A model generated the notes under the pieces. It was not told where the DNA came from. It was given only the letters and a program-made list of their open reading frames with translations, and did not search any database. From NCBI GenBank assembly GCA_964016885.1, contig OZ024757.1, positions 40,672,001 to 40,736,000 of the forward strand: a stretch of DNA of 64,000 nt. Reading direction: 5' to 3'. Position numbers and translations under genes: made by a program. This document shows, one piece after another, positions 5,306-64,000 of this stretch. How positions within the stretch are numbered: position 1 is the first letter of the stretch; each line of letters opens with the position of its first letter. The DNA is from Eledone cirrhosa (lineage: Eukaryota).

Positions 5306-5759
<454 letters not shown>

Positions 5760-6020
5760 TGTGTGAGAAAATGGCAGAAAGAGAAATACAAAAGAGAGAG
5801 CGAGAGATAGAAAGAGAACAGGAGTGATAGTTAGAGGAGGGGGAACCATTGTGAGAGAAGGGGAGGTAACTGGTTGTGTGCAATACGTCTGTTAGTTTTA
5901 TGAGGAAGAGAACAAGATGGCTGAATATCTAGATCTAATGAAGCGATAAAGTCCTACAGAATTAAGTATGTCACTAATGTGTATCTATATGTGTGCGTAA
6001 TGGAAGCTATATATGTATGT

Positions 6021-6060
<40 letters not shown>

Positions 6061-6139
6061 TTGCGACAGCGAATGTGGATGGACGCCAATTTAAATGAAT
6101 CGTTACGTGGAATATATATATATGTTCTATGTATATATA

Positions 6140-6193
6140 TGCTATATACATACACATCTCTCTCTCTCTCTATATATATATAACAGATGCCTT

Positions 6194-6233
<40 letters not shown>

Positions 6234-6252
6234 CATACATACACATCTGTCG

Positions 6253-6308
<56 letters not shown>

Positions 6309-6508
6309 CAGATGCCTCTTACACACACAGATATATATATATATATATATATTATATACATACATACACATGTGTCTCTCTCTCTCTCCCTATATATATA
6401 TATATATATTATATATTATATACATACACATCTCTCTCTCTCTCTCTCTCTCTCCCTCTCTCTCTCTCTCAATATATATATATATTATATAGATACACAT
6501 CTGTCTCC

Positions 6509-6549
<41 letters not shown>

Positions 6550-6572
6550 CTATATACATACACATCTCTCTA

Positions 6573-6619
<47 letters not shown>

Positions 6620-6680
6620 TATACATACATATCTGTCTCGCTCTCTCTCTCTCCCTCCATATATATATATATACACACAT
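6140..6680. repeat. Higher-order compound microsatellite [tatacatacacatct-(CT)n-(AT)n], about 8 units
   Basis: The same module recurs with variable CT and AT lengths. Confidence 0.8.
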
Positions 6681-6749
6681 ATGGAGGAGTCGTATGTGTG
6701 CCGTATTGTTATACAGCATTTCTTGGGTATTTTTGATACCTCGGGGAGC

Positions 6750-16156: not shown

Positions 16157-16162
16157 AGTATA

Positions 16163-16270
<108 letters not shown>

Positions 16271-16301
16271 TATATATATATATATATACACACATATATA
16301 C

Positions 16302-16730
16302 ATTGCTGTAGTGGAGTCTGTGCTGCTGTATGGGTCTGAGACTTGGACACTGACCAAGAGACTCACTCAGATGGTGGATGGGTGCTACACGAGAATGCTG
16401 AGGATGGCTCTGAACATTAATCAGTATACACTGAGGATGAAAAACTCAGAGCTGTACGGGAGCATCCCAAAAGTCAGCTCAAAAGTGACACAGAGAAGAC
16501 TGAGGTTGGCTGGACATGCTCACAGGCATCCAGAGTTGACATTGCACTCAGTGCTCCTTTGGGAGCCCCTACATGGACACACTAGAAGAGGAGGACCAAG
16601 GTTAACATATGTTGATGCCCTAAGGACAGACACTGGTCTGTTGGAGATGCAGGATATGGCAGCGATAATGAGGGACAGAGACCGCTGGAGAGAACTCGTC
16701 CATGGATCTCGGGAATTTTACTCGCCTTAG
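16302..16730 (+). mobile_element. 5'-truncated RTE-type LINE, ORF2 C-terminal fragment, inserted in (TA)n
   Basis: [16 protein letters not shown]...LRMALNI...[12 protein letters not shown]...[16 protein letters not shown]...M.DRDRWR is the typical post-RT RTE C-terminus. The frame is open to its stop. Confidence 0.9.
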
Positions 16731-29389: not shown

Positions 29390-29537
29390 ACAAAAACATG
29401 GCTTAGTGGTTAGAGCATTGGGCTTGGAATCGGAAGGTTGTGAGTTCGATTCTCGGACAGGGTGTTGCATCGTGTCCTTGAGTAAGACACTTTGTTTCAC
29501 GTTGCTCCAGTTTGCTCAGCCTTAGAAATGAATTGCG
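29390..29537 (+). mobile_element. tRNA-derived SINE with CORE-like domain
   Basis: A box TGGCTTAGTGG (29399), B box GAGTTCGATTC (29442), then gtgtccttgagtaagacacttt, which resembles the CORE motif GTGNCCTTGGGCAAGTCACTT. Confidence 0.8.
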
Positions 29538-49552: not shown

Positions 49553-50042
49553 TTGTTTCTACTTTAGGCACAAGGCCAGCAATTATCCCAGTGCATTACT
49601 GGTACTTTATTTTATCGACTCGATAAGGATGAAAGGCAAAGTTAACCTCGGCGGGATTTGAACTGAGACGGTAAAGGACCGCAACTCTATGTTAGAAAGC
49701 ATGGCGTCCGACCCTCCACCGATACTGCCAATCCACCGCCCTTCTTAATGTTCGTCTTAATAATAGCAAAAACATAGAACATATATAATTGTTTCTACTT
49801 TTGGCACAAGGCCAGCAAATACCCAGTACATTACTGGTACTTTATTTTATCGACTCCGTAAGGATGAAAGGCAAAGTTAACCTCGACTAGATGGAAAAGT
49901 TAACCTCGGCGGGATTTGAACTCAGATCGTAAAGGACCGTAACTCTATGCTGGAAATCATGGTGTCCGACCCTCTACCGATACTGCCAATTCACCGCCCT
50001 TAATGGTCTTCTTAATATTAACAAAAACAGAACATATATAAT
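49553..50042 (-). mobile_element. Tandem duplication of a Meta-domain SINE plus flank (about 240 bp x2)
   Basis: ttgtttctactt..ggcacaaggccagcaa begins at about 49553 and about 49789; both units end in agaacatatataat. Confidence 0.88.
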
Positions 50043-52321: not shown

Positions 52322-54100
52322 AGTTTCTTTTATTTGCCACTAGGGCATCAAAAGTGGGACAAGTACAAAGGGGGGAGTTTACACAAAAAGGCGTCCTCAA
52401 TAAGGAGGAGGCAATAACAAAATATAAAAATAAAATAAGATATAACAAAAAATAAAATTTTTAACAAAATCCTCAATAGAGAGGAGGCGCCTTGGGGGGT
52501 CGCACACACCCCCGAAAAAAGTGTGCAACCCTTTTCCTCAGGAGCACAGAGAGGGGGTGCTCCCTCGTTCCTTCCTCTTTTCCACCTACAGGCTTATGTA
52601 AAGAGAAGGCCCATTCACACGGGCCATTCTCGCCACTTTCACCCACCTTTCATAAAAACGACTGGGGTGCAGCACCTCTCTCTCCATCCTGATCCTTCTT
52701 CCGAAATGATATCGGAAGAAACGGACCAGTTGTTGGCCAGAGAGAAAGGTGCCTGACCTCAGTCCTTTCAGACGCGTCCACCATACAACCTCTTTCGCCA
52801 TGGCTATTACGCACAGAAACACCGCCTCTGCTTCATCTTTGAAGGGGGGAGGCGGCTTGATCATTACAATAGACTCGGTGGTCAACCGGATCGGTCCCAC
52901 CCTTGACAGCAGTTGTTCGACATAGCCCCACAGATCGGCTACGCCCGAGCAGTGTACCAATGCGTGTGCAACGGTTTCCTCGTCGCACACGCATCTGGGA
53001 CAGATCTTTTTGGCGGGGTCCCTACCCGGGCGCCCGTGTCTGTAGAGCCTTTCTCGAACGGGTAAAGCCCCTCGGTAGCACTGCCAGGCCAGGGACTTCT
53101 GGAAGTTGTCCATAGGTCCCGGGCTGAATGTCCTACCGAACAGGCTGGCCAGTTCGTCCTCCTCCATGTCTAGGGCTTCTCCGAGGGCGTCGTCGCACCT
53201 GCTGCGTACCAGCCCTCTATAGAATGTTGCGGTGGAGTCTCCACTGATAACCGGATCCGCCTGCCAGAGGGCGGTGAGCGCCTGGGCACACTCAGTGTGC
53301 CAGGCGCCCAGTTTTCTCGGTCTTTGCTTGACCCAGGATTGCAGCTCGGTGAGTGAGACGAGTCTGGGAAAGGTTCGTCTCACAAACGAGGCCCACACCG
53401 GTTGTCCGGTGAGGAATACGTAGAGGTGCCGTAGCCTTAATGCGTGTTTACGCATCATTAGCCATGGCATCCCCAGCCCTCCCTTCGAAGGGTGTTGACA
53501 GCAGATGGATCTCCTCACCATAGGAGCCCGCCTCTTCCAAAGGAATTGGAAGAGCGCGCGCTCCATCTTGGTGAGAGTTTCCCTTGGGCAGGGCACTACG
53601 GTCAGGCGGTAGTAGATGACGGACGCTATATAAGTGTTCGCCACCTCCGCCCGACCTTTCAGGGATAGTTTGCAACTGGCCCACTTCTGGGTCAGTGCAA
53701 ACACCCTGTTCGTAACCTCCGCCCAGTTTTTCTCCACCTGGAGGTCCGGTCCGAACCAGACCCCGAGCAACTTCACCGGGCCCTCCGTCCAGCGTCCGAC
53801 GACGCCATCAGAGGGCATCGGTCTGCCCCTCCACGTGCCGAGTTGCAAACCGATCGACTTGTCCCGGTTCAGCTTAGCCCCTGTGAACTTTTCGTACTCC
53901 TCCAGTAAGGTGCCGACCGCCTCGATTTCGGAGGCCGTCGACACCATTACTGTCACATCATCGGCGTAGGCTGACACCGCTTTCCGCAATCCCGGTTCCA
54001 AAGGGATGCCCTGCAACAACTCCAACTTCCGCAGTAGTGGCTCGAGAGTCAACACATACAGAAGGGAGGAGAGAGGGCACCCTTGTCGGATGGACCGCGC
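52322..54100 (-). mobile_element. 5'-truncated L1/Tx1-type non-LTR retrotransposon inserted in (GATA)n
   Basis: A GC-rich island holds the RT ORF and a 3' UTR ending gccctagtggcaaataaaagaaactt. GATA repeats flank both ends. Confidence 0.93.
52586..54100 (-). CDS. Partial ORF2: RT domain C-terminal half, thumb and zf-RVT zinc knuckle (5'-truncated, about 500 aa open)
   Basis: SIRQGCPLS, AYADDV, GAKLNRDKS, KLLGVWF, LSLKGR, GGLG, CPRC...ETVAHALVHC; no internal stop. Confidence 0.92.
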   Translation of the reverse strand, partial: ARSIRQGCPLSSLLYVLTLEPLLRKLELLQGIPLEPGLRKAVSAYADDVTVMVSTASEIEAVGTLLEEYEKFTGAKLNRDKSIGLQLGTWRGRPMPSDGVVGRWTEGPVKLLGVWFGPDLQVEKNWAEVTNRVFALTQKWASCKLSLKGRAEVANTYIASVIYYRLTVVPCPRETLTKMERALFQFLWKRRAPMVRRSICCQHPSKGGLGMPWLMMRKHALRLRHLYVFLTGQPVWASFVRRTFPRLVSLTELQSWVKQRPRKLGAWHTECAQALTALWQADPVISGDSTATFYRGLVRSRCDDALGEALDMEEDELASLFGRTFSPGPMDNFQKSLAWQCYRGALPVRERLYRHGRPGRDPAKKICPRCVCDEETVAHALVHCSGVADLWGYVEQLLSRVGPIRLTTESIVMIKPPPPFKDEAEAVFLCVIAMAKEVVWWTRLKGLRSGTFLSGQQLVRFFRYHFGRRIRMEREVLHPSRFYERWVKVARMARVNGPSLYISL

Positions 54101-54146
54101 GATAGATAAATCGATAAATAGATAGGTTGATGGATAGATAGATAGA

Positions 54147-54407
54147 TTTCTATATTTGCCACAAGGGCGCACAAGGAAAGGGGACAATGCAAAGACATAT
54201 GCCGGGGACTTTACATATAAACGTGTACAAAAATGTTAACATACAAATTCAACAATCGACATCCCAATAGGGAGGAGGCGTTACCAATGGGTTGTTTTAT
54301 ACCCCGTAGATAGAACAACACTCAACTCCAAGAACATGTTGTACAAGTGCTCCTTTCTTCCTTTTGCTCTCTTCTTCAACACACAGTTTTAAATACAGAG
54401 AAGGCCC
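54147..54407 (-). mobile_element. Second Tx1-type 3' end (last ORF codons plus diverged 3' UTR) in the same (GATA)n tract
   Basis: Reverse complement starts gggccttctctgtat (GPSLY, as at the end of the 52586 ORF), shares cgcctcctc.ctatt and ends gcccttgtggcaaatatagaaa. Confidence 0.8.
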
Positions 54408-55809: not shown

Positions 55810-56101
55810 TTGATTCAATCGCCCCCTGTGAGTTACTGGTATAATATTTCGTAAGGATGATGAAAGGCAAATCCTACCTCGGTGAGATTTGGACAGAACA
55901 AAAAAGGTTTGTAACTGAATTACGCAAAGCATTTTTTTCACGCTCTGTCGATGCTGCCAATCAATAACCCTGAATGGATTCATATTTAAGTGCAAGGTCA
56001 ACGGTTTTAGTGAGGGTAAAGTCGATTAAATCAACCCCAAAGCATTACTGGTATTTTATTTTATCGATCCGTTAAGAATGAAAGGCAAAGCTAACCTCGG
56101 C
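55810..56101 (-). mobile_element. Two Meta-domain SINE fragments
   Basis: ttactggta...atgaaaggcaaa...cctcgg occurs twice. Confidence 0.75.
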
Positions 56102-56969
56102 ATGATAAGTCTCTGGTGGCTTGACACAGACTTTAAACCTGCGAGGGAATGGCGTCTTAACGAGGGGGGGGGGGGGGAGTTGCTTAGCACCTAGGAAACC
56201 TTGATAGACACCGGCCTGATGGACTCCTGGGGATTTGAGCTTGCGACAGCCTTTATTCCTGCAATGGAATGGCTTCCTGTGACAAGCGGGAGTCTTGTAC
56301 TCACACTCACTTCACGCCATGGAAACTGAGATAAGCACTGTATTAAAGAACGACCGGGTTCGAAACCTACTTTAGGTTCTAGATATTCTGCATAAGGTTC
56401 CGTCTTAATCAGACTTTCTACTTAACATATACCTAGTCGAATTGCTCTTATCAACAACACAACATACATGACCTCATATAGAGACGGCATTAAAGATATC
56501 ACATTCACACCATTTTCCCAAACGCACACACACAACTACAAAGAAAAAATAAAAGAATAGAAAGAACTCTATATATCAGTCACACAGAAAATTGGTTCTA
56601 AACCAAATCGATTAAAGGTAGTAGCTACCAAATTTCCATTTCCCGTCTTCGCAACAGTGCCAAAGAACACCAGATAAAAATCAACCAATATATTCGTCAT
56701 TACAAACAAACTACAGACTACATACCGCATACACGGAAAACGGAATGTCTAGAAGTTAAGTGAAACGTCAGTTCATTATTAATAGGACGAGGAGAAGACA
56801 TACATAAAAGCAAAATCCACATGCTCCACTTTACAAACACTTAGAGTAGCTATATTTTGTCAACAGAAAACAATCAAACATTTTGTTTTACAAAAACGTC
56901 CATTATATCTATCATCGAATTTGTAAGATTTACCTAGTTTTTGATATTTCCCCTACCTTACTCAATAAT

Positions 56970-57448
56970 GGTTTCTGATGAAAGCACAAGGCCAGCAATT
57001 TTTGAGGAAAAAGAAAGTCGATTAAATCAACCCCAGTGAATTTTATCAACCCCGTAACGTTGAAATCCAAACTAACCACGGCAGGATTTGAACTAAATAA
57101 TAATAATAATAATTGTTTCTACTTTTGGCACAAGGCCAACAAATACCCAGTGCATTACTGGTACTTTATTTTATTGACCCCTGTAAGGATGAAAGGCAAA
57201 GTTACCCTCGGCCGGATTTGAACTCAGTCTGTAAGAAGGACATAACTCTATGCTGCAAAACATGGCGTTCGACCCTCTACCGATACTGCCAATGCACCGC
57301 CTAATAATAGTTTCAGATTTACGCACAAGGCCAGCAATTTTATGTGAGGGGAAAGTCGATGAAATCCACACCACTGTGAGACTGGTACTATATTTTATTG
57401 ACCCGTAAGGATAAAAATGCAAAGCTAACCTCGGCAGTATTTGAACTT
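56970..57448 (-). mobile_element. Cluster of three Meta-domain SINE copies or fragments
   Basis: gcacaaggcca at about 56984, 57129 and 57323, each followed by Meta/B-box-complement sequence. Confidence 0.85.
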
Positions 57449-57463
57449 AATGTATAGATATAT

Positions 57464-59574: not shown

Positions 59575-62500
59575 ATGTGAATTTATTTAAATTTGATGTA
59601 ATTGAATTTAATTTCATTCAATTTAATTAATTTTTTTAAAAAGTAGGTTTATAAGTATTGATTTCAGTAAACCTTTGTAGCTGTCTCTGTGGTCTAGTGG
59701 GAAGTGGAGAGTCGGTAGAAATCCTAATCGAGGGTTTAGTCCTAATCTGGAGATACATCTAGACTGCTGTATTAATTTTTTTTCAATTTTCCTTTTTCAT
59801 CTCTTAGAAAAAAATTGAAAGTGTTGAGAGACAACCCAATGTAAAATTATCTCATTAAATTTTCATTGAATTTTATTTTAATTTAATATAATCTAATTAG
59901 TTTATTTAATTTTTTTTTGAAAGTAGGTTTATAAGTATCAATTTTCAATGGAGTTTTATAGGTCTCTCAGTGGCTTCGTGGGAGTCGGAGAGACGGCGTA
60001 ACTCTATCGCTGGGGTTCAATCCCAGTCGGGAGATGCATGTAGGGTGCTGTAGAAAGCTTTTTTTTCACTTTTGTCTTTACATCTCTTAGAAAAAAAATT
60101 GAAAAAGGTTAGTGTGAACCCCAATGAGTAATTATCACATTTTATTTTATTTTATTTTAATTATATATAATTTAATATAATTTAATTTGATTTAATTAAA
60201 CTTTTTTTTAAAGTAGGTTTATAAGTATTGATTTTCAGTCAATCTTCGTAGCTGTCTCTGTGGCTTAGTGGGAAGTAGAGAGACTTTGCTGATCCTTGCC
60301 GGCAGAGACATGTAGGGTGTCTTGTATTCACTTTTTTTCAGTTTTGATTTGACATCTCTTAGAAAAAAACTGAAAAAAGGTTAGTGTGAACCCCAATGAG
60401 TAATTATCATATTTTATTTTATTTTATTTTAATTTTATATAATTTAATCTAATTTAATTTGATTTAATTAAACTTTTTTTAAATGTAGGTTTATAAGTAT
60501 TGATTTTCAGTCAATCTTTGTAACTGTCTCTCTGGCTTAGTGGGAAGTAGAGAGACGTTGGTGATCCTGGTCTGGGGTTCAATCTTTCCGGGAGAGACAT
60601 GTAGTGTGTTGTATTCACTTTTTTTTCAGTTTTGTTTTGACATCTCTTAGAAAAAAACTGAAAAAGGTTAGTCAGAACCCCAATGAGTAATTATTACATT
60701 TTATTTTATTTTAATTATATATAATTATATATAATTTAATTTGATTTAATTAAACTTTTTTTTAAAGTAGGTTTATAAGTATTGATTTTCAGCCATTCTT
60801 TGTAGCTGTCTCTGTGGCTTAGTGGGAAGTGGCGAGACGTTGGTGATCCTGGTCTGGGGTTCAATCTTGCCGGGAGATGCATGTAGGGTGCTGTATTCAC
60901 TTTTTTTTCAGTTTTCTTTTGACATCTCTTAGAAAAAACTGTAAAAGGTTAGTGTGAACCCCAATGAGTAATTATCACATTTTTTTTTTTTATTTTAATT
61001 ATAAATAATTTAATCTAATTTAATTTGATTTAATTAACCTTTTTTTAAAAGTAGGTTTATAAGTATTGATTTTCAGTCAATCTTTGTAGCTGTCTCTGTG
61101 GCTTAGTGGGAAGTAGAGAGACGTTGTGGATCCTGGTCTGGGGTTCAGTCTTTCCGGGAGAGACATGTAGACCGTCATATTAATTTTTTTTCAATTTTCC
61201 ATTTGCATCTCTTAGAATAAAACTGAGAGTTGAAGGACAAGGCCAGTGTGTAATTATTTCATTATATTGTCTTTTAATATAATTTAATTTAATTTAACTT
61301 CAGATAATTAATTTAATCTAAATCTTCTTTGAAAGTAGATTTATAAGTATCAATTTTCAAGGTCTGGGGTTCAATCGTAGTCGAGAGATACAAGTAGGGT
61401 GTCGTATTCCCTTTTTTTTCAGTTTTCCTTTGACATCTCTTAGAAAAAACTGTAAAAGGTTAGTGTGAACCCCAATGAGTAATTATCACATTTTTTTTTT
61501 TTATTTTAATTATATATAATTTAATCTAATTTAATTTGATTTAATTAAACTTTTTTTAAAAGTAGGTTTATAAGTATTGATTTTCAGTCAATCTTCGTAG
61601 CTGTCTCTGTGGCCTAGTGGGAAGTGGAGAGACGTTGGTGATCCTGGTCTGGGGTTCAATCTTGACGGGACAGACATGTAGAGTGTTCCATTCACTTTTT
61701 TTTCAGTTTTCTTTTGACATCTCTTAGAAAAAAACTGAAAAAGTTTAGTGAGAGCCCCAATGAGTAATTATCACATTTTTTTTAATTTTAATTATATATA
61801 ATTATATATAATTTAATTTGATTTAATTAAACTTTTTTTAAAAGTAGGTTTATAAGTATTGATTTTCAGTCAATCTTTGTAGCTGTCTCTGTGGCTTAGT
61901 GGGAAGTGGAGAGACGTTGGCGATCCTGGTCTGGGGTTCAATCTTGACGGGACAGACATGTAGAGTGTTCCATTCACTTTTTTTTCAGTTTTCTTTTGAC
62001 ATCTCTTAGAAAAAAACTGAAAAAGTTTAGTGAGAGCCCCAATGAGTAATTATCACATTTTTTTTAATTTTAATTATATATAATTATATATAATTTAATT
62101 TGATTTAATTAAACTTTTTTTAAAAGTAGGTTTATAAGTATTGATTTTCAGTCAATCTTCGTAGCTGTCTCTGTGGCTTAGTGGGAAGTGGAGAGACGTT
62201 GGTGATCCTGGTCTGGGTTTCAATCTTGACGGGACAGACATGTAGAGTGTTCCATTCACTTTTTTTTCAGTTTTCTTTTGACATCTCTTAGAAAAAAACT
62301 GAAAAAGTTTAGTGAGAGCCCCAATGAGTAATTATCACATTTTTTTAAATTTTAATTATATATAATTATATATAATTTAATTTGATTTAATTAAACTTTT
62401 TTTAAAAGTAGGTTTATAAGTATTGATTTTCAGTCAATCTTTGTAGCTGTCTCTGTGGCTTAGTGGGAAGTGGAGAGACGTTGGTGATCCTGGTCTGGGG

Positions 62501-64000
62501 TTCAATCTTGACGGGACAGACATGTAGAGTGTTCCATTCACTTTTTTTTCAGTTTTCTTTTGACATCTCTTAGAAAAAAACTGAAAAAGTTTAGTGAGAG
62601 CCCCAATGAGTAATTATCACATTTTTTTTAATTTTAATTATATATAATTATATATAATTTAATTTGATTTAATTAAACTTTTTTTAAAAGTAGGTTTATA
62701 AGTATTGATTTTCAGTCAATCTTTGTAGCTGTCTCTGTGGCTTAGTGGGAAGTGGAGAGACGTTGGTGATCCTGGTCTGGGGTTCAATCTTGACGGGACA
62801 GACATGTAGAGTGTTCCATTCACTTTTTTTTCAGTTTTCTTTTGACATCTCTTAGAAAAAAACTGAAAAAGTTTAGTGAGAGCCCCAATGAGTAATTATC
62901 ACATTTTTTTTAATTTTAATTATATATAATTATATATAATTTAATTTGATTTAATTAAACTTTTTTTAAAAGTAGGTTTATAAGTATTGATTTTCAGTCA
63001 ATCTTCGTAGCTGTCTCTGTGGCTTAGTGGGAAGTGGAGAGACGTTGGTGATCCTGGTCTGGGGTTCAATCTTGACGGGACAGACATGTAGAGTGTTCCA
63101 TTCACTTTTTTTTCAGTTTTCTTTTGACATCTCTTAGAAAAAAACTGAAAAAGTTTAGTGAGAGCCCCAATGAGTAATTATCACATTTTTTTAAATTTTA
63201 ATTATATATAATTATATATAATTTAATTTGATTTAATTAAACTTTTTTTAAAAGTAGGTTTATAAGTATTGATTTTCAGTCAATCTTTGTAGCTGTCTCT
63301 GTGGCTTAGTGGGAAGTGGAGAGACGTTGGTGATCCTGGTCTGGGGTTCAATCTTGACGGGACAGACATGTAGAGTGTTCCATTCACTTTTTTTTCAGTT
63401 TTCTTTTGACATCTCTTAGAAAAAAACTGAAAAAGGTTAGTGAGAACCCCAATGAGTAATTATCACATTTTTTTTAATTTTAATTATATATAATTATATA
63501 TAATTTAATTTGATTTAATTAAACTTTTTTTAAAAGTAGGTTTATAAGTATTGATTTTCAGTCAATCTTCGTAGCTCTCTCTGTGGCTTAGTGGGAAGTA
63601 GAAAGAGAGACGTTGGTGATCCTAGTCTGGGGTTTAGTCCTGGTCGGGAGAGACATGTTGACCGTCATATTGTATTTTAATTTAATTTAATTTAATTTAA
63701 CTTCAGATAATTAATTTAATCTAATTCTTCTTTGAAAGTAGATTTACAAGTATCAACTTTCAAGGTCTGGGGTTCAATTATGGTCGAGAGATACAAGTAG
63801 GGTGTCGTATTCCCTTTTTTTTCAGTTTTCCTTTGACCTCTCTTAGAAAAAACTGTAAAAGGTTAGTGTGAACCCCAATGAGTAATTATCACATTTTTAT
63901 TTTATTTTATTTTAATTATATATAATTTAATATAATTTAATTTGATTTAATTAAACTTTTTTTTAAAGTAGGTTTATAAGTATTGATTTTCAGTCAATCT
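59575..64000 (+). repeat. 282-bp tandem satellite, about 16 units, running off the window; each full unit contains a tRNA-like Pol III cassette
   Basis: The AGTAGGTTTATAAG anchor occurs at 61561, 61843, 62125, 62407, 62689, 62971, 63253 and 63535 (exact 282 spacing). More diverged units start at about 59642, 59922, 60212, 60485, 60767 and 61050. Truncated units start at about 61334 and 63737. Confidence 0.97.
60526..60599 (+). ncRNA. Representative tRNA-like Pol III cassette of the satellite (best-pairing copy); not a canonical tRNA
   Basis: GTCTCTC/GAGAGAC form a 7-bp terminal stem. A box TGGCTTAGTGG is at position 8, followed by D-like stem GCTT/AAGT and B box GGTTCAATC, with T8 about 20 nt downstream. 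The anticodon arm pairs poorly. Confidence 0.5.

What the first reader, a model, noticed from the sequence alone, without database searches (positions are those of the whole stretch)
59575..64000. Tandem array of tRNA-shaped Pol III transcription cassettes (282-bp satellite): candidate multicopy small-RNA locus
Seen: each full unit has a GC-richer 73-nt core in very AT-rich spacer (e.g. 61603-61675). The A box TGGCYTAGTGG starts at nt 8 and the B box GGTTCAATC follows 43 nt later. TTTATAAG lies about 35 nt upstream and a T8 run about 20 nt downstream. Established: this is the layout of a type-2 Pol III gene with its terminator. Inference: the array may produce a tRNA-like non-coding RNA of about 95-100 nt, or act as a TFIIIC-bound boundary or heterochromatin element. 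The anticodon arm does not fold, so it is unlikely to decode. The 5' end GTCTCTGTGGC and a central GTT recall tRNA-Asn, but the A box also equals that of the SINE head at 29399, so the origin is unresolved. tRNA- and SINE-derived satellites exist in other taxa, so novelty is uncertain.
Basis: partly seen in the sequence, partly recalled or inferred. Interest (0 to 1): 0.8.

Follow-up and report, generated by a model that had tools for sequence, protein, structure and literature searches.

The report
Tandem tRNA-shaped Pol III gene cassettes
A likely octopus genome holds a head-to-tail array of 282-base units, most laid out like a transfer-RNA gene with promoter and stop signal; DNA reads show many diverged relatives that keep these signals, so the family likely makes a tRNA-shaped non-coding RNA, though no transcript has been seen and the copies here look weakened.

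Summary
The array is real: 17 units on one strand, 13 with both box-like motifs. The TATA–A–B–T-run layout arose in 0 of 20,000 shuffles. No unit is a tRNA by ARAGORN or Rfam, but unit 2 keeps 19 of 21 cloverleaf pairs (p=0.0002), so a tRNA origin is likely. The SINE at 29399 shares only the boxes. DNA runs of organism A hold a much larger, diverged family in which the TATA block and A/B boxes persist while linkers change. Three D-stem variants there stay fully paired (read by eye). The window's copies look decayed: 0 of 17 have both consensus boxes, and there is no covariation among them. Best reading: a locally amplified, weakened offshoot of a large family of Pol III cassettes that likely makes a ~100-nt tRNA-shaped, non-decoding RNA. 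Transcription is untested. Closest known: amphibian PolIII/TAN, OAX, Rana/polIII and rodent 4.5SH arrays; ten literature searches found no cephalopod case. New variant of a known kind; interest 0.55.

The parts
59575..64000 (+). Head-to-tail array of 17 units (202-290 bp, main period 282 bp); runs off the window end
61559..61577 (+). TATA-bearing upstream block of example unit u8 (TTTATAAG at 61567-61574); 14 of 17 copies identical over 19 nt; deepest block in run X1
61603..61675 (+). tRNA-shaped core of u8 (14 of 21 cloverleaf pairs, not above its null)
61610..61620 (+). A box of u8, matches consensus
61653..61663 (+). B box of u8; T instead of the conserved C at consensus position 10
61696..61703 (+). 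T8 run, predicted Pol III terminator (T7-T8 in 15 of 16 complete units)
61696..61742 (.). T-rich/A-rich inverted repeat that starts at the terminator; folds well in u8 (z -3.8) but not in u1, u2, u6
59964..60036 (+). Core of u2: near-complete cloverleaf (19 of 21 pairs) and the only strict B box; A box has C at the conserved A
59683..59755 (+). Core of u1, diverged edge copy (69-79% identical to the others), B box C-to-T
61562..63535 (+). Recently homogenised block u8-u14, 98-100% identical
60213..60484 (+). u3, B-box half deleted
61335..61561 (+). u7, A-box half deleted; duplicated as u16 (63738-63967) in a higher-order repeat
63536..63737 (+). u15, terminator and inverted repeat deleted

Best explanation
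This is a tandem array of tRNA-shaped cassettes with a Pol III-type promoter layout, a locally amplified and likely weakened offshoot of a much larger family in the same species whose intact members would be transcribed by Pol III into a ~100-nt, likely tRNA-derived RNA that is predicted not to decode. Shown: the array, the TATA block, A box, B box and T-run, the vestigial cloverleaf, and many diverged relatives in DNA runs that keep the same blocks. Inferred steps: TFIIIC binds the A and B boxes; TBP/TFIIIB sits on the TATA block, which places the start near 61597-61599 if the block is at -31/-24 as in rodent 4.5SH and 4.5SI genes; Pol III stops at the T8 run. Intact members fold acceptor, D and T arms and could be trimmed like a pre-tRNA to ~73 nt, but lack a canonical anticodon loop. 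Copies spread at the DNA level by unequal crossing-over and conversion, because the untranscribed upstream block travels with every unit and there is no LINE-like or A-rich tail. The amplified type in this window lost the conserved C of the B box and much pairing, so it is probably a weak or silent template.
For: Layout beyond chance: 0 of 20,000 shuffles. tRNA ancestry: u2 has 19 of 21 cloverleaf pairs against a null mean of 12.6 with the boxes held fixed, p=0.0002; u1 and u4 p=0.03. ARAGORN at 80% threshold places pseudogene calls on the cores of u1, u2, u4, u5, u6 and u15. Promoter blocks conserved in the window: boxes 15 of 20 invariant versus core 27 of 66, p=0.007; longest invariant run (19 nt) is the TATA block, p=0.002. 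Wider family: 258 contigs of X1 laid, 241 of them under 95% alike; found in all 4 runs laid (2 studies). X1 summed depth is about 41,000 on the TATA block, 5,700-6,700 around the A and B boxes and 48-93 on the trailer, against 37.8 for the contig nearly identical to the main type here. Of 40 variant rows shown, none falls in the TATA block or B box, and the two in the A box sit at degenerate consensus positions. Loose ends restore the consensus C of the B box in 11 contigs, 17 and 44 reads, against 5, 14 and 17 that keep T. By eye, D-stem states GCTT/AAGT (window), GCCT/AGGT and GTCT/AGAT (loose-end rows) are all fully paired, which is two compensatory changes. A weak internal promoter leaning on a TATA-like box at -31/-24 is established for 4.5SH genes (PMC7279448).
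Against: No transcript evidence at all. 0 of 17 units has both strict boxes. No covariation among 10 window cores: 237 of 500 shuffles reach the observed score, and RNAalifold's consensus is a different fold with 0 compensatory pairs. The main type folds no better than shuffles (z +0.9 and +1.7) and its cloverleaf score is at the null (p=0.42). No Rfam tRNA hit at E<=10 even for u2. ARAGORN at 80% also makes 29 calls in the rest of the window. Boxes versus outer spacer is borderline (p=0.05) and the units are mosaics, so the tests are not independent. In one search the depth is no copy number, laying at 80% favours conserved blocks, 45 of 85 variant rows and 69 loose-end rows were not shown, and the B box lies at the end of many laid pieces, where variants are under-called. 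One loose-end type has only 3 of 4 D pairs, and the type with GTCT/AGAT breaks the A-box consensus. 5' and 3' loose ends are separate rows and cannot be linked.
Confidence: 0.55

Rival explanations
1. Silent satellite grown from a dead tRNA pseudogene; no member is usefully transcribed, and the apparent conservation comes from conversion, base composition and mapping bias.
For: 0 of 17 units with both strict boxes; no covariation in the window; units lacking a box or the terminator were duplicated along with the rest; main type folds no better than shuffles.
Against: Different 5' stems and 3' ends sit around the same boxes in reads, and the TATA block is shared far more widely than any linker; three fully paired D-stem states (by eye); boxes more invariant than the neighbouring GC-rich core.
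Confidence: 0.2
2. The unit acts as DNA: arrays of TFIIIC/TBP sites that serve as boundary or chromatin-organising elements, with any RNA a by-product.
For: Protein-binding blocks are the best-conserved parts while the RNA body drifts. tDNA and TFIIIC boundary activity is known from yeasts and mammals (recalled, no call).
Against: The B box, the main TFIIIC contact, is the degraded element in the amplified copies; a terminator is kept in 15 of 16 complete units; stem compensation points to RNA structure (by eye).
Confidence: 0.12
3. Decayed copies of an ordinary decoding tRNA gene that is itself tandemly arrayed elsewhere with the same flanks.
For: Near-complete cloverleaf in u2; cephalopod genomes hold very many tRNA-derived loci, about 17,000 in giant squid (PMC6962438); the TATA block is about six times deeper than the cores in X1, so it may front other genes.
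Against: None of the 12 loose-end rows shown reads as a canonical 5-bp/7-nt anticodon arm (by eye; 69 rows not shown); no tRNA call at normal thresholds.
Confidence: 0.08
4. Satellite derived from a SINE head, like the SINE-derived satellites of reptiles.
For: A box identical to that of the SINE at 29399; tRNA-derived SINEs are known in octopus (cited in PMC4758252).
Against: No likeness to either in-window SINE head beyond the boxes (8 comparisons, p=0.07-0.92); no dispersed core in the other 59.5 kb; every unit keeps an upstream block that retroposition would not copy; no SINE body or tail after the core.
Confidence: 0.05

Closest known systems
Amphibian tRNA-related tandem repeats: PolIII/TAN (newt, ~360 nt), OAX/satellite I (Xenopus), Rana/polIII (~250 nt), Hy/polIII
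   Same: Tandem units of a few hundred bases with a tRNA-related segment and no known parent SINE (PMC10702118, passages; PMC12054243, passages).
   Different: Here the host is likely an octopod mollusc. Each unit keeps a conserved upstream TATA block and its own terminator, and a diverged family keeps the promoter blocks. PolIII/TAN is transcribed in vitro; that is untested here. No sequence comparison with these repeats was possible.
Rodent 4.5SH RNA genes (and 4.5SI)
   Same: Hundreds of tandem copies of a ~95-nt Pol III non-coding RNA gene with A/B boxes and a -31/-24 TATA-like box that props up a weak internal promoter (PMC7279448, abstract and passages).
   Different: 4.5SH comes from 7SL via a B1-type SINE and sits in 4-5-kb units; this unit is 282 bp, tRNA-shaped, and far more diverse between loci. 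Analogy only, no homology claimed.
tRNA genes and pseudogenes (Rfam RF00005)
   Same: A-to-B spacing, core length and, in u2, cloverleaf pairing.
   Different: Fails ARAGORN and Rfam; non-canonical T-loop register and anticodon loop.
tRNA-headed SINEs and SINE-derived satellites (octopus OK/OR1/OR2; reptile sSat)
   Same: A/B boxes, high copy number.
   Different: No body or tail, upstream flank retained, tandem not dispersed in this window, no likeness to the in-window SINE heads. The published octopus SINE sequences could not be compared; the names OK and OR1 are recalled, OR2 is.

Membership tests
tRNA-related Pol III tandem repeats (PolIII/TAN, OAX, Rana/polIII type) | Head-to-tail units of a few hundred bases | tested here: met
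   17 units, main period 282 bp
tRNA-related Pol III tandem repeats (PolIII/TAN, OAX, Rana/polIII type) | tRNA-related segment with A and B boxes | tested here: met
   Box-like motifs in 13 of 17 units; cloverleaf vestige in u2, p=0.0002. Identity to a named tRNA not measured.
tRNA-related Pol III tandem repeats (PolIII/TAN, OAX, Rana/polIII type) | Transcribed by Pol III in vitro or in vivo | not testable with these tools
tRNA-related Pol III tandem repeats (PolIII/TAN, OAX, Rana/polIII type) | High copy number | tested here: inconclusive
   TATA block about 1,100-fold and box regions about 150-180-fold deeper than the main-type contig in X1, but depth is no copy number
Functional tRNA gene | Passes tRNA covariance model or ARAGORN | tested here: not met
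Functional tRNA gene | 5-bp anticodon stem with 7-nt loop and U33 | tested here: not met
   Best 3 of 5 pairs in eight cores; 4 of 5 in u2, whose loop has G at 33
SINE (SINEBase definition, PMC3531059) | Interspersed copies | tested here: inconclusive
   None in the other 59.5 kb of the window; genome not held; reads show varied flanks
SINE (SINEBase definition, PMC3531059) | At least 60% identity to a tRNA over 60 nt | not testable with these tools
   No animal tRNA set was at hand; a phage search gave only three E=10 hits in protein genes
SINE (SINEBase definition, PMC3531059) | Body and LINE-related or simple-repeat tail, no fixed upstream flank | tested here: not met
   Core is followed by 20 nt and a T-run; upstream block in 17 of 17 units
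Vault, Y, tRNA-Sec and other Rfam RNA families | Match to the family model | tested here: not met
   0 at gathering score; at E<=10 only AT-rich hits such as mir-184 and RUF6-5, far below their cut-offs and mostly on the terminator hairpin
4.5SH-like multicopy Pol III ncRNA gene family (works like) | Conserved TATA-like box about 24-31 nt before the start plus internal A/B boxes and terminator | tested here: met
   Layout and conservation; the start site itself is inferred
4.5SH-like multicopy Pol III ncRNA gene family (works like) | Abundant discrete RNA in cells | not testable with these tools
   Needs small-RNA sequencing or a northern blot

The most novel reading that the evidence does not exclude
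Octopods carry an undescribed family of perhaps thousands of dedicated Pol III genes, all behind one ultraconserved TATA block. They make tRNA-shaped RNAs that keep acceptor, D and T arms under selection but have diversified, non-decoding anticodon regions: a large tRNA-mimic repertoire that past annotation filed as tRNA pseudogenes or SINEs.
Probability: 0.25. Interest if true: 0.8.

Novelty: new variant of a known kind. Interest (0 to 1): 0.55.

Why it matters
tRNA-related Pol III tandem repeats were found described only for amphibians in the papers read, and their function is open. A mollusc family with a conserved upstream block, terminator and signs of stem compensation would look like a real gene family rather than a fossil. 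It would give a defined, testable target (one probe for the TATA block, a ~100-nt RNA) for asking what the tens of thousands of tRNA-derived loci in cephalopod genomes do. If it proves silent, it is an ordinary tRNA-derived satellite.

Tried and rejected
No genome is held for this window, so no genome-wide scan. No RNA holder listed among 7 runs; this says nothing on expression. Pattern scans for the family found 0 matches in metagenome contigs, viral contigs and prokaryote genomes. Phage BLAST of u2 gave three E=10 chance hits. Earlier-findings look-ups by place, sequence and words returned nothing. Rfam weak hits (mir-184, RUF6-5 and others) rejected: far below gathering scores and driven by the AT-rich hairpin. 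ARAGORN's 'Val' calls at 90% threshold rejected: they start inside the core and do not use the A box. A pre-miRNA reading of the downstream hairpin rejected: it begins with the terminator and is not significant in u1, u2 or u6; its central pair is compensated in u1 but mismatched in u2 and u6. A two-hairpin fold (5' end paired with the purine run after the A box) is the commonest predicted fold but has 0 compensatory pairs. The first box scan used a too-narrow B pattern and was redone. Parent isotype not assigned: ARAGORN's labels differ from unit to unit (Tyr, Arg, Pro, Thr), and resemblances to several animal tRNAs are recalled only. The 2015 octopus genome paper is not held. No supplements were opened; repeat libraries in supplements or in Repbase/Dfam could already list this unit.
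Full report
Setting. The window is microsatellite-rich animal DNA without N. A LINE-type reverse transcriptase frame at 52586-54235 (-) (Pfam RVT_1) has as best named relatives proteins of Argonauta hians (60%) and Octopus sinensis (44%) among 69 hits, most unnamed. The host is therefore likely an octopod; this is an inference from a mobile element. No whole genome is held.

Observation. A 19-nt block containing TTTATAAG occurs 17 times from 59640 to 63983, all on +, against 0.21 expected. Units are 202-290 bp, and u8-u14 are 282 bp and 98-100% identical. A sequence profile of ten cores finds 13 full cores, one 5'-only (u3), two 3'-only (u7, u16) and nothing outside the array. In u8 the TATA motif is at 61567-61574, the A box at 61610, the B box at 61653 and T8 at 61696, with no earlier T4 in the predicted transcript. 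A relaxed pattern for the whole layout occurred in 0 of 20,000 shuffles of one unit; the B pattern was relaxed after seeing the unit. Edge copies u1, u2 and u6 are mostly only 70-84% identical to the other units, and 61040-61600 is repeated at 63520-64000 at 88-96%. This is the picture of an array shaped by unequal crossing-over, with old copies at the edge and a fresh sweep inside.

Is it a tRNA? Not by standard tests: ARAGORN 0, Rfam 0 at gathering score, no tRNA or vault hit at E<=10 on the array or on u2 alone. But with the boxes held fixed and the rest shuffled, u2 has 19 of 21 cloverleaf pairs (null 12.6, p=0.0002), u1 16 (p=0.03), u4 17 (p=0.03), u5 17 (p=0.05), u6 16 (p=0.11) and u8 14 (p=0.42); small register choices were allowed in both observed and null. 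The T arm pairs best one base off the canonical register, and u2's anticodon loop has G at position 33. A tRNA ancestor is likely and decoding is unlikely. The isotype is unresolved. The SINE heads at 29399 and 21280 share only the boxes (8 comparisons, p=0.07-0.92).

Selection inside the window. Among u1, u2, u6 and u8, 15 of 20 box columns are invariant against 27 of 66 in the rest of the core and trailer (p=0.007) and 52 of 99 in the outer spacer (p=0.05). The longest invariant run, 19 nt, is the TATA block (p=0.002). Units are mosaics, so these p values are optimistic. Against function of these copies: by the consensus TRGYNNARNNG and GGTTCRANYCY (PMC12498455, passages), 0 of 17 units has both boxes intact. 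The amplified type has T for the conserved C at B position 10, u1 and u15 have lost C5, and u2 has the only strict B box but a broken A box. Ten cores show no covariation on the cloverleaf (237 of 500 shuffles as high), RNAalifold prefers another fold with no compensatory pair, and u8 folds no better than shuffles.

The wider family. One unit (61500-61790) was laid at 80% likeness on 4 of the 7 listed runs of organism A. All four hold relatives: 258 contigs in X1 (6 at 99% or more, 11 at 95-99, 100 at 90-95, 141 below 90), 3 in X4, 109 and 153 reads in X5 and X6. X1 depth is modular: about 41,000 at 61560-61579, 5,700-6,000 at 61590-61619, 6,600-6,700 at 61630-61659, 48-93 at 61670-61699 and 900-1,400 at 61710-61749. 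The contig nearly identical to the window's main type has 37.8. Depth is no copy number, and branching of diverged contigs lowers it on variable stretches, but with seven main-type copies in the window the ratio suggests thousands of TATA blocks (rough inference). Of 40 variant rows shown (45 not shown), none lies in the TATA block or B box and two lie in the A box, both at degenerate positions; the B box is at the end of many laid pieces, so variants there are under-called. Loose ends (12 rows shown, 69 not) put different 5' stems before the A box and different 3' ends after the B box. They restore the consensus B-box C in 11 contigs, 17 and 44 reads, against 5, 14 and 17 with T. Read by eye, the D stem is fully paired in three states (GCTT/AAGT here; GCCT/AGGT; GTCT/AGAT), a fourth type has one mismatch, and the third type breaks the A box. 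The commonest variant at core position 6 (G, 78% of X1 depth) would pair with the C that is invariant on the 3' side in the window. The 5' and 3' rows cannot be linked, so acceptor-stem compensation is suggested, not shown.

Mechanism. Established for type-2 promoters: TFIIIC binds A and B and recruits TFIIIB (PMC12498455); a TATA-like box at -31/-24 matters most when the internal promoter is weak (PMC7279448, abstract and passages). Applied here, the start falls near 61597-61599 and the end in the T8 run, giving about 100-103 nt (inferred). Intact family members would fold acceptor, D and T arms and might be trimmed like pre-tRNA (inferred, untested). Spread is by DNA-level duplication, since the upstream block is kept. 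This array is most likely a weakened offshoot. I give this reading 0.55, a silent satellite 0.20, a DNA-level boundary element 0.12, decayed true tRNA genes 0.08 and a SINE-derived satellite 0.05.

Comparison with what is known. tRNA-related tandem repeats are described in amphibians: PolIII/TAN, OAX, Rana/polIII and Hy/polIII (PMC10702118, passages; PMC12054243, passages). Rodent 4.5SH genes are the closest working analogy. Giant squid has about 17,000 tRNA-derived loci, which its authors took largely as SINEs (PMC6962438, passages). A schistosome satellite with a Pol III promoter is mentioned in PMC2220036 (passages), so invertebrate precedent exists in a loose sense. SINEBase warns that A and B boxes alone are only an indication (PMC3531059, passages). 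PMC4758252 and PMC9223172 (passages) cite octopus SINEs but no tandem family in the passages seen. Ten full-text searches (listings and abstract starts only, apart from the papers named) showed no description of such an array in a cephalopod. The library lacks most subscription papers, including the 1994 octopus SINE paper (seen only as a citation) and the 2015 genome paper, and no supplements or repeat libraries were seen.

Verdict. It is a new variant of a known kind. The bold case, a large selected family of tRNA-mimic RNAs, has probability about 0.25 and would merit 0.8; overall interest 0.55.

Noticed in passing
window 52586-54235 (-): Long open frame with LINE-type reverse transcriptase and zf-RVT domains, GC-rich against its surroundings, so probably a young 5'-truncated insertion; best named relatives are from Argonauta and Octopus.
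   Followed up: partly
window 29399 and 21280 (+): Two tRNA-headed SINE-like copies with A and B boxes and similar downstream sequence; unrelated to the array core beyond the boxes.
   Followed up: partly
window 16158-16730 (+): Open frame whose later part looks by eye like the end of a LINE ORF2; no Pfam hit.
   Followed up: no
window 49560-50010, 55990-56110, 56990-57450: Several copies of one dispersed ~150-250-bp repeat, some in tandem pairs, seen by eye.
   Followed up: no
window 61696-61742 and equivalents: Inverted repeat starting at the terminator in 15 of 16 complete units; forms a second conserved depth block in reads although it would lie outside the transcript; unexplained.
   Followed up: partly
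window 61559-61589: The TATA block is about six times deeper than the cores in run X1, so it may also sit in front of other Pol III genes or more diverged family members.
   Followed up: no
protein P0004: A relative of the LINE protein at 62% identity is labelled as from a bacterial metagenome-assembled genome, probably host DNA contamination in that record.
   Followed up: no
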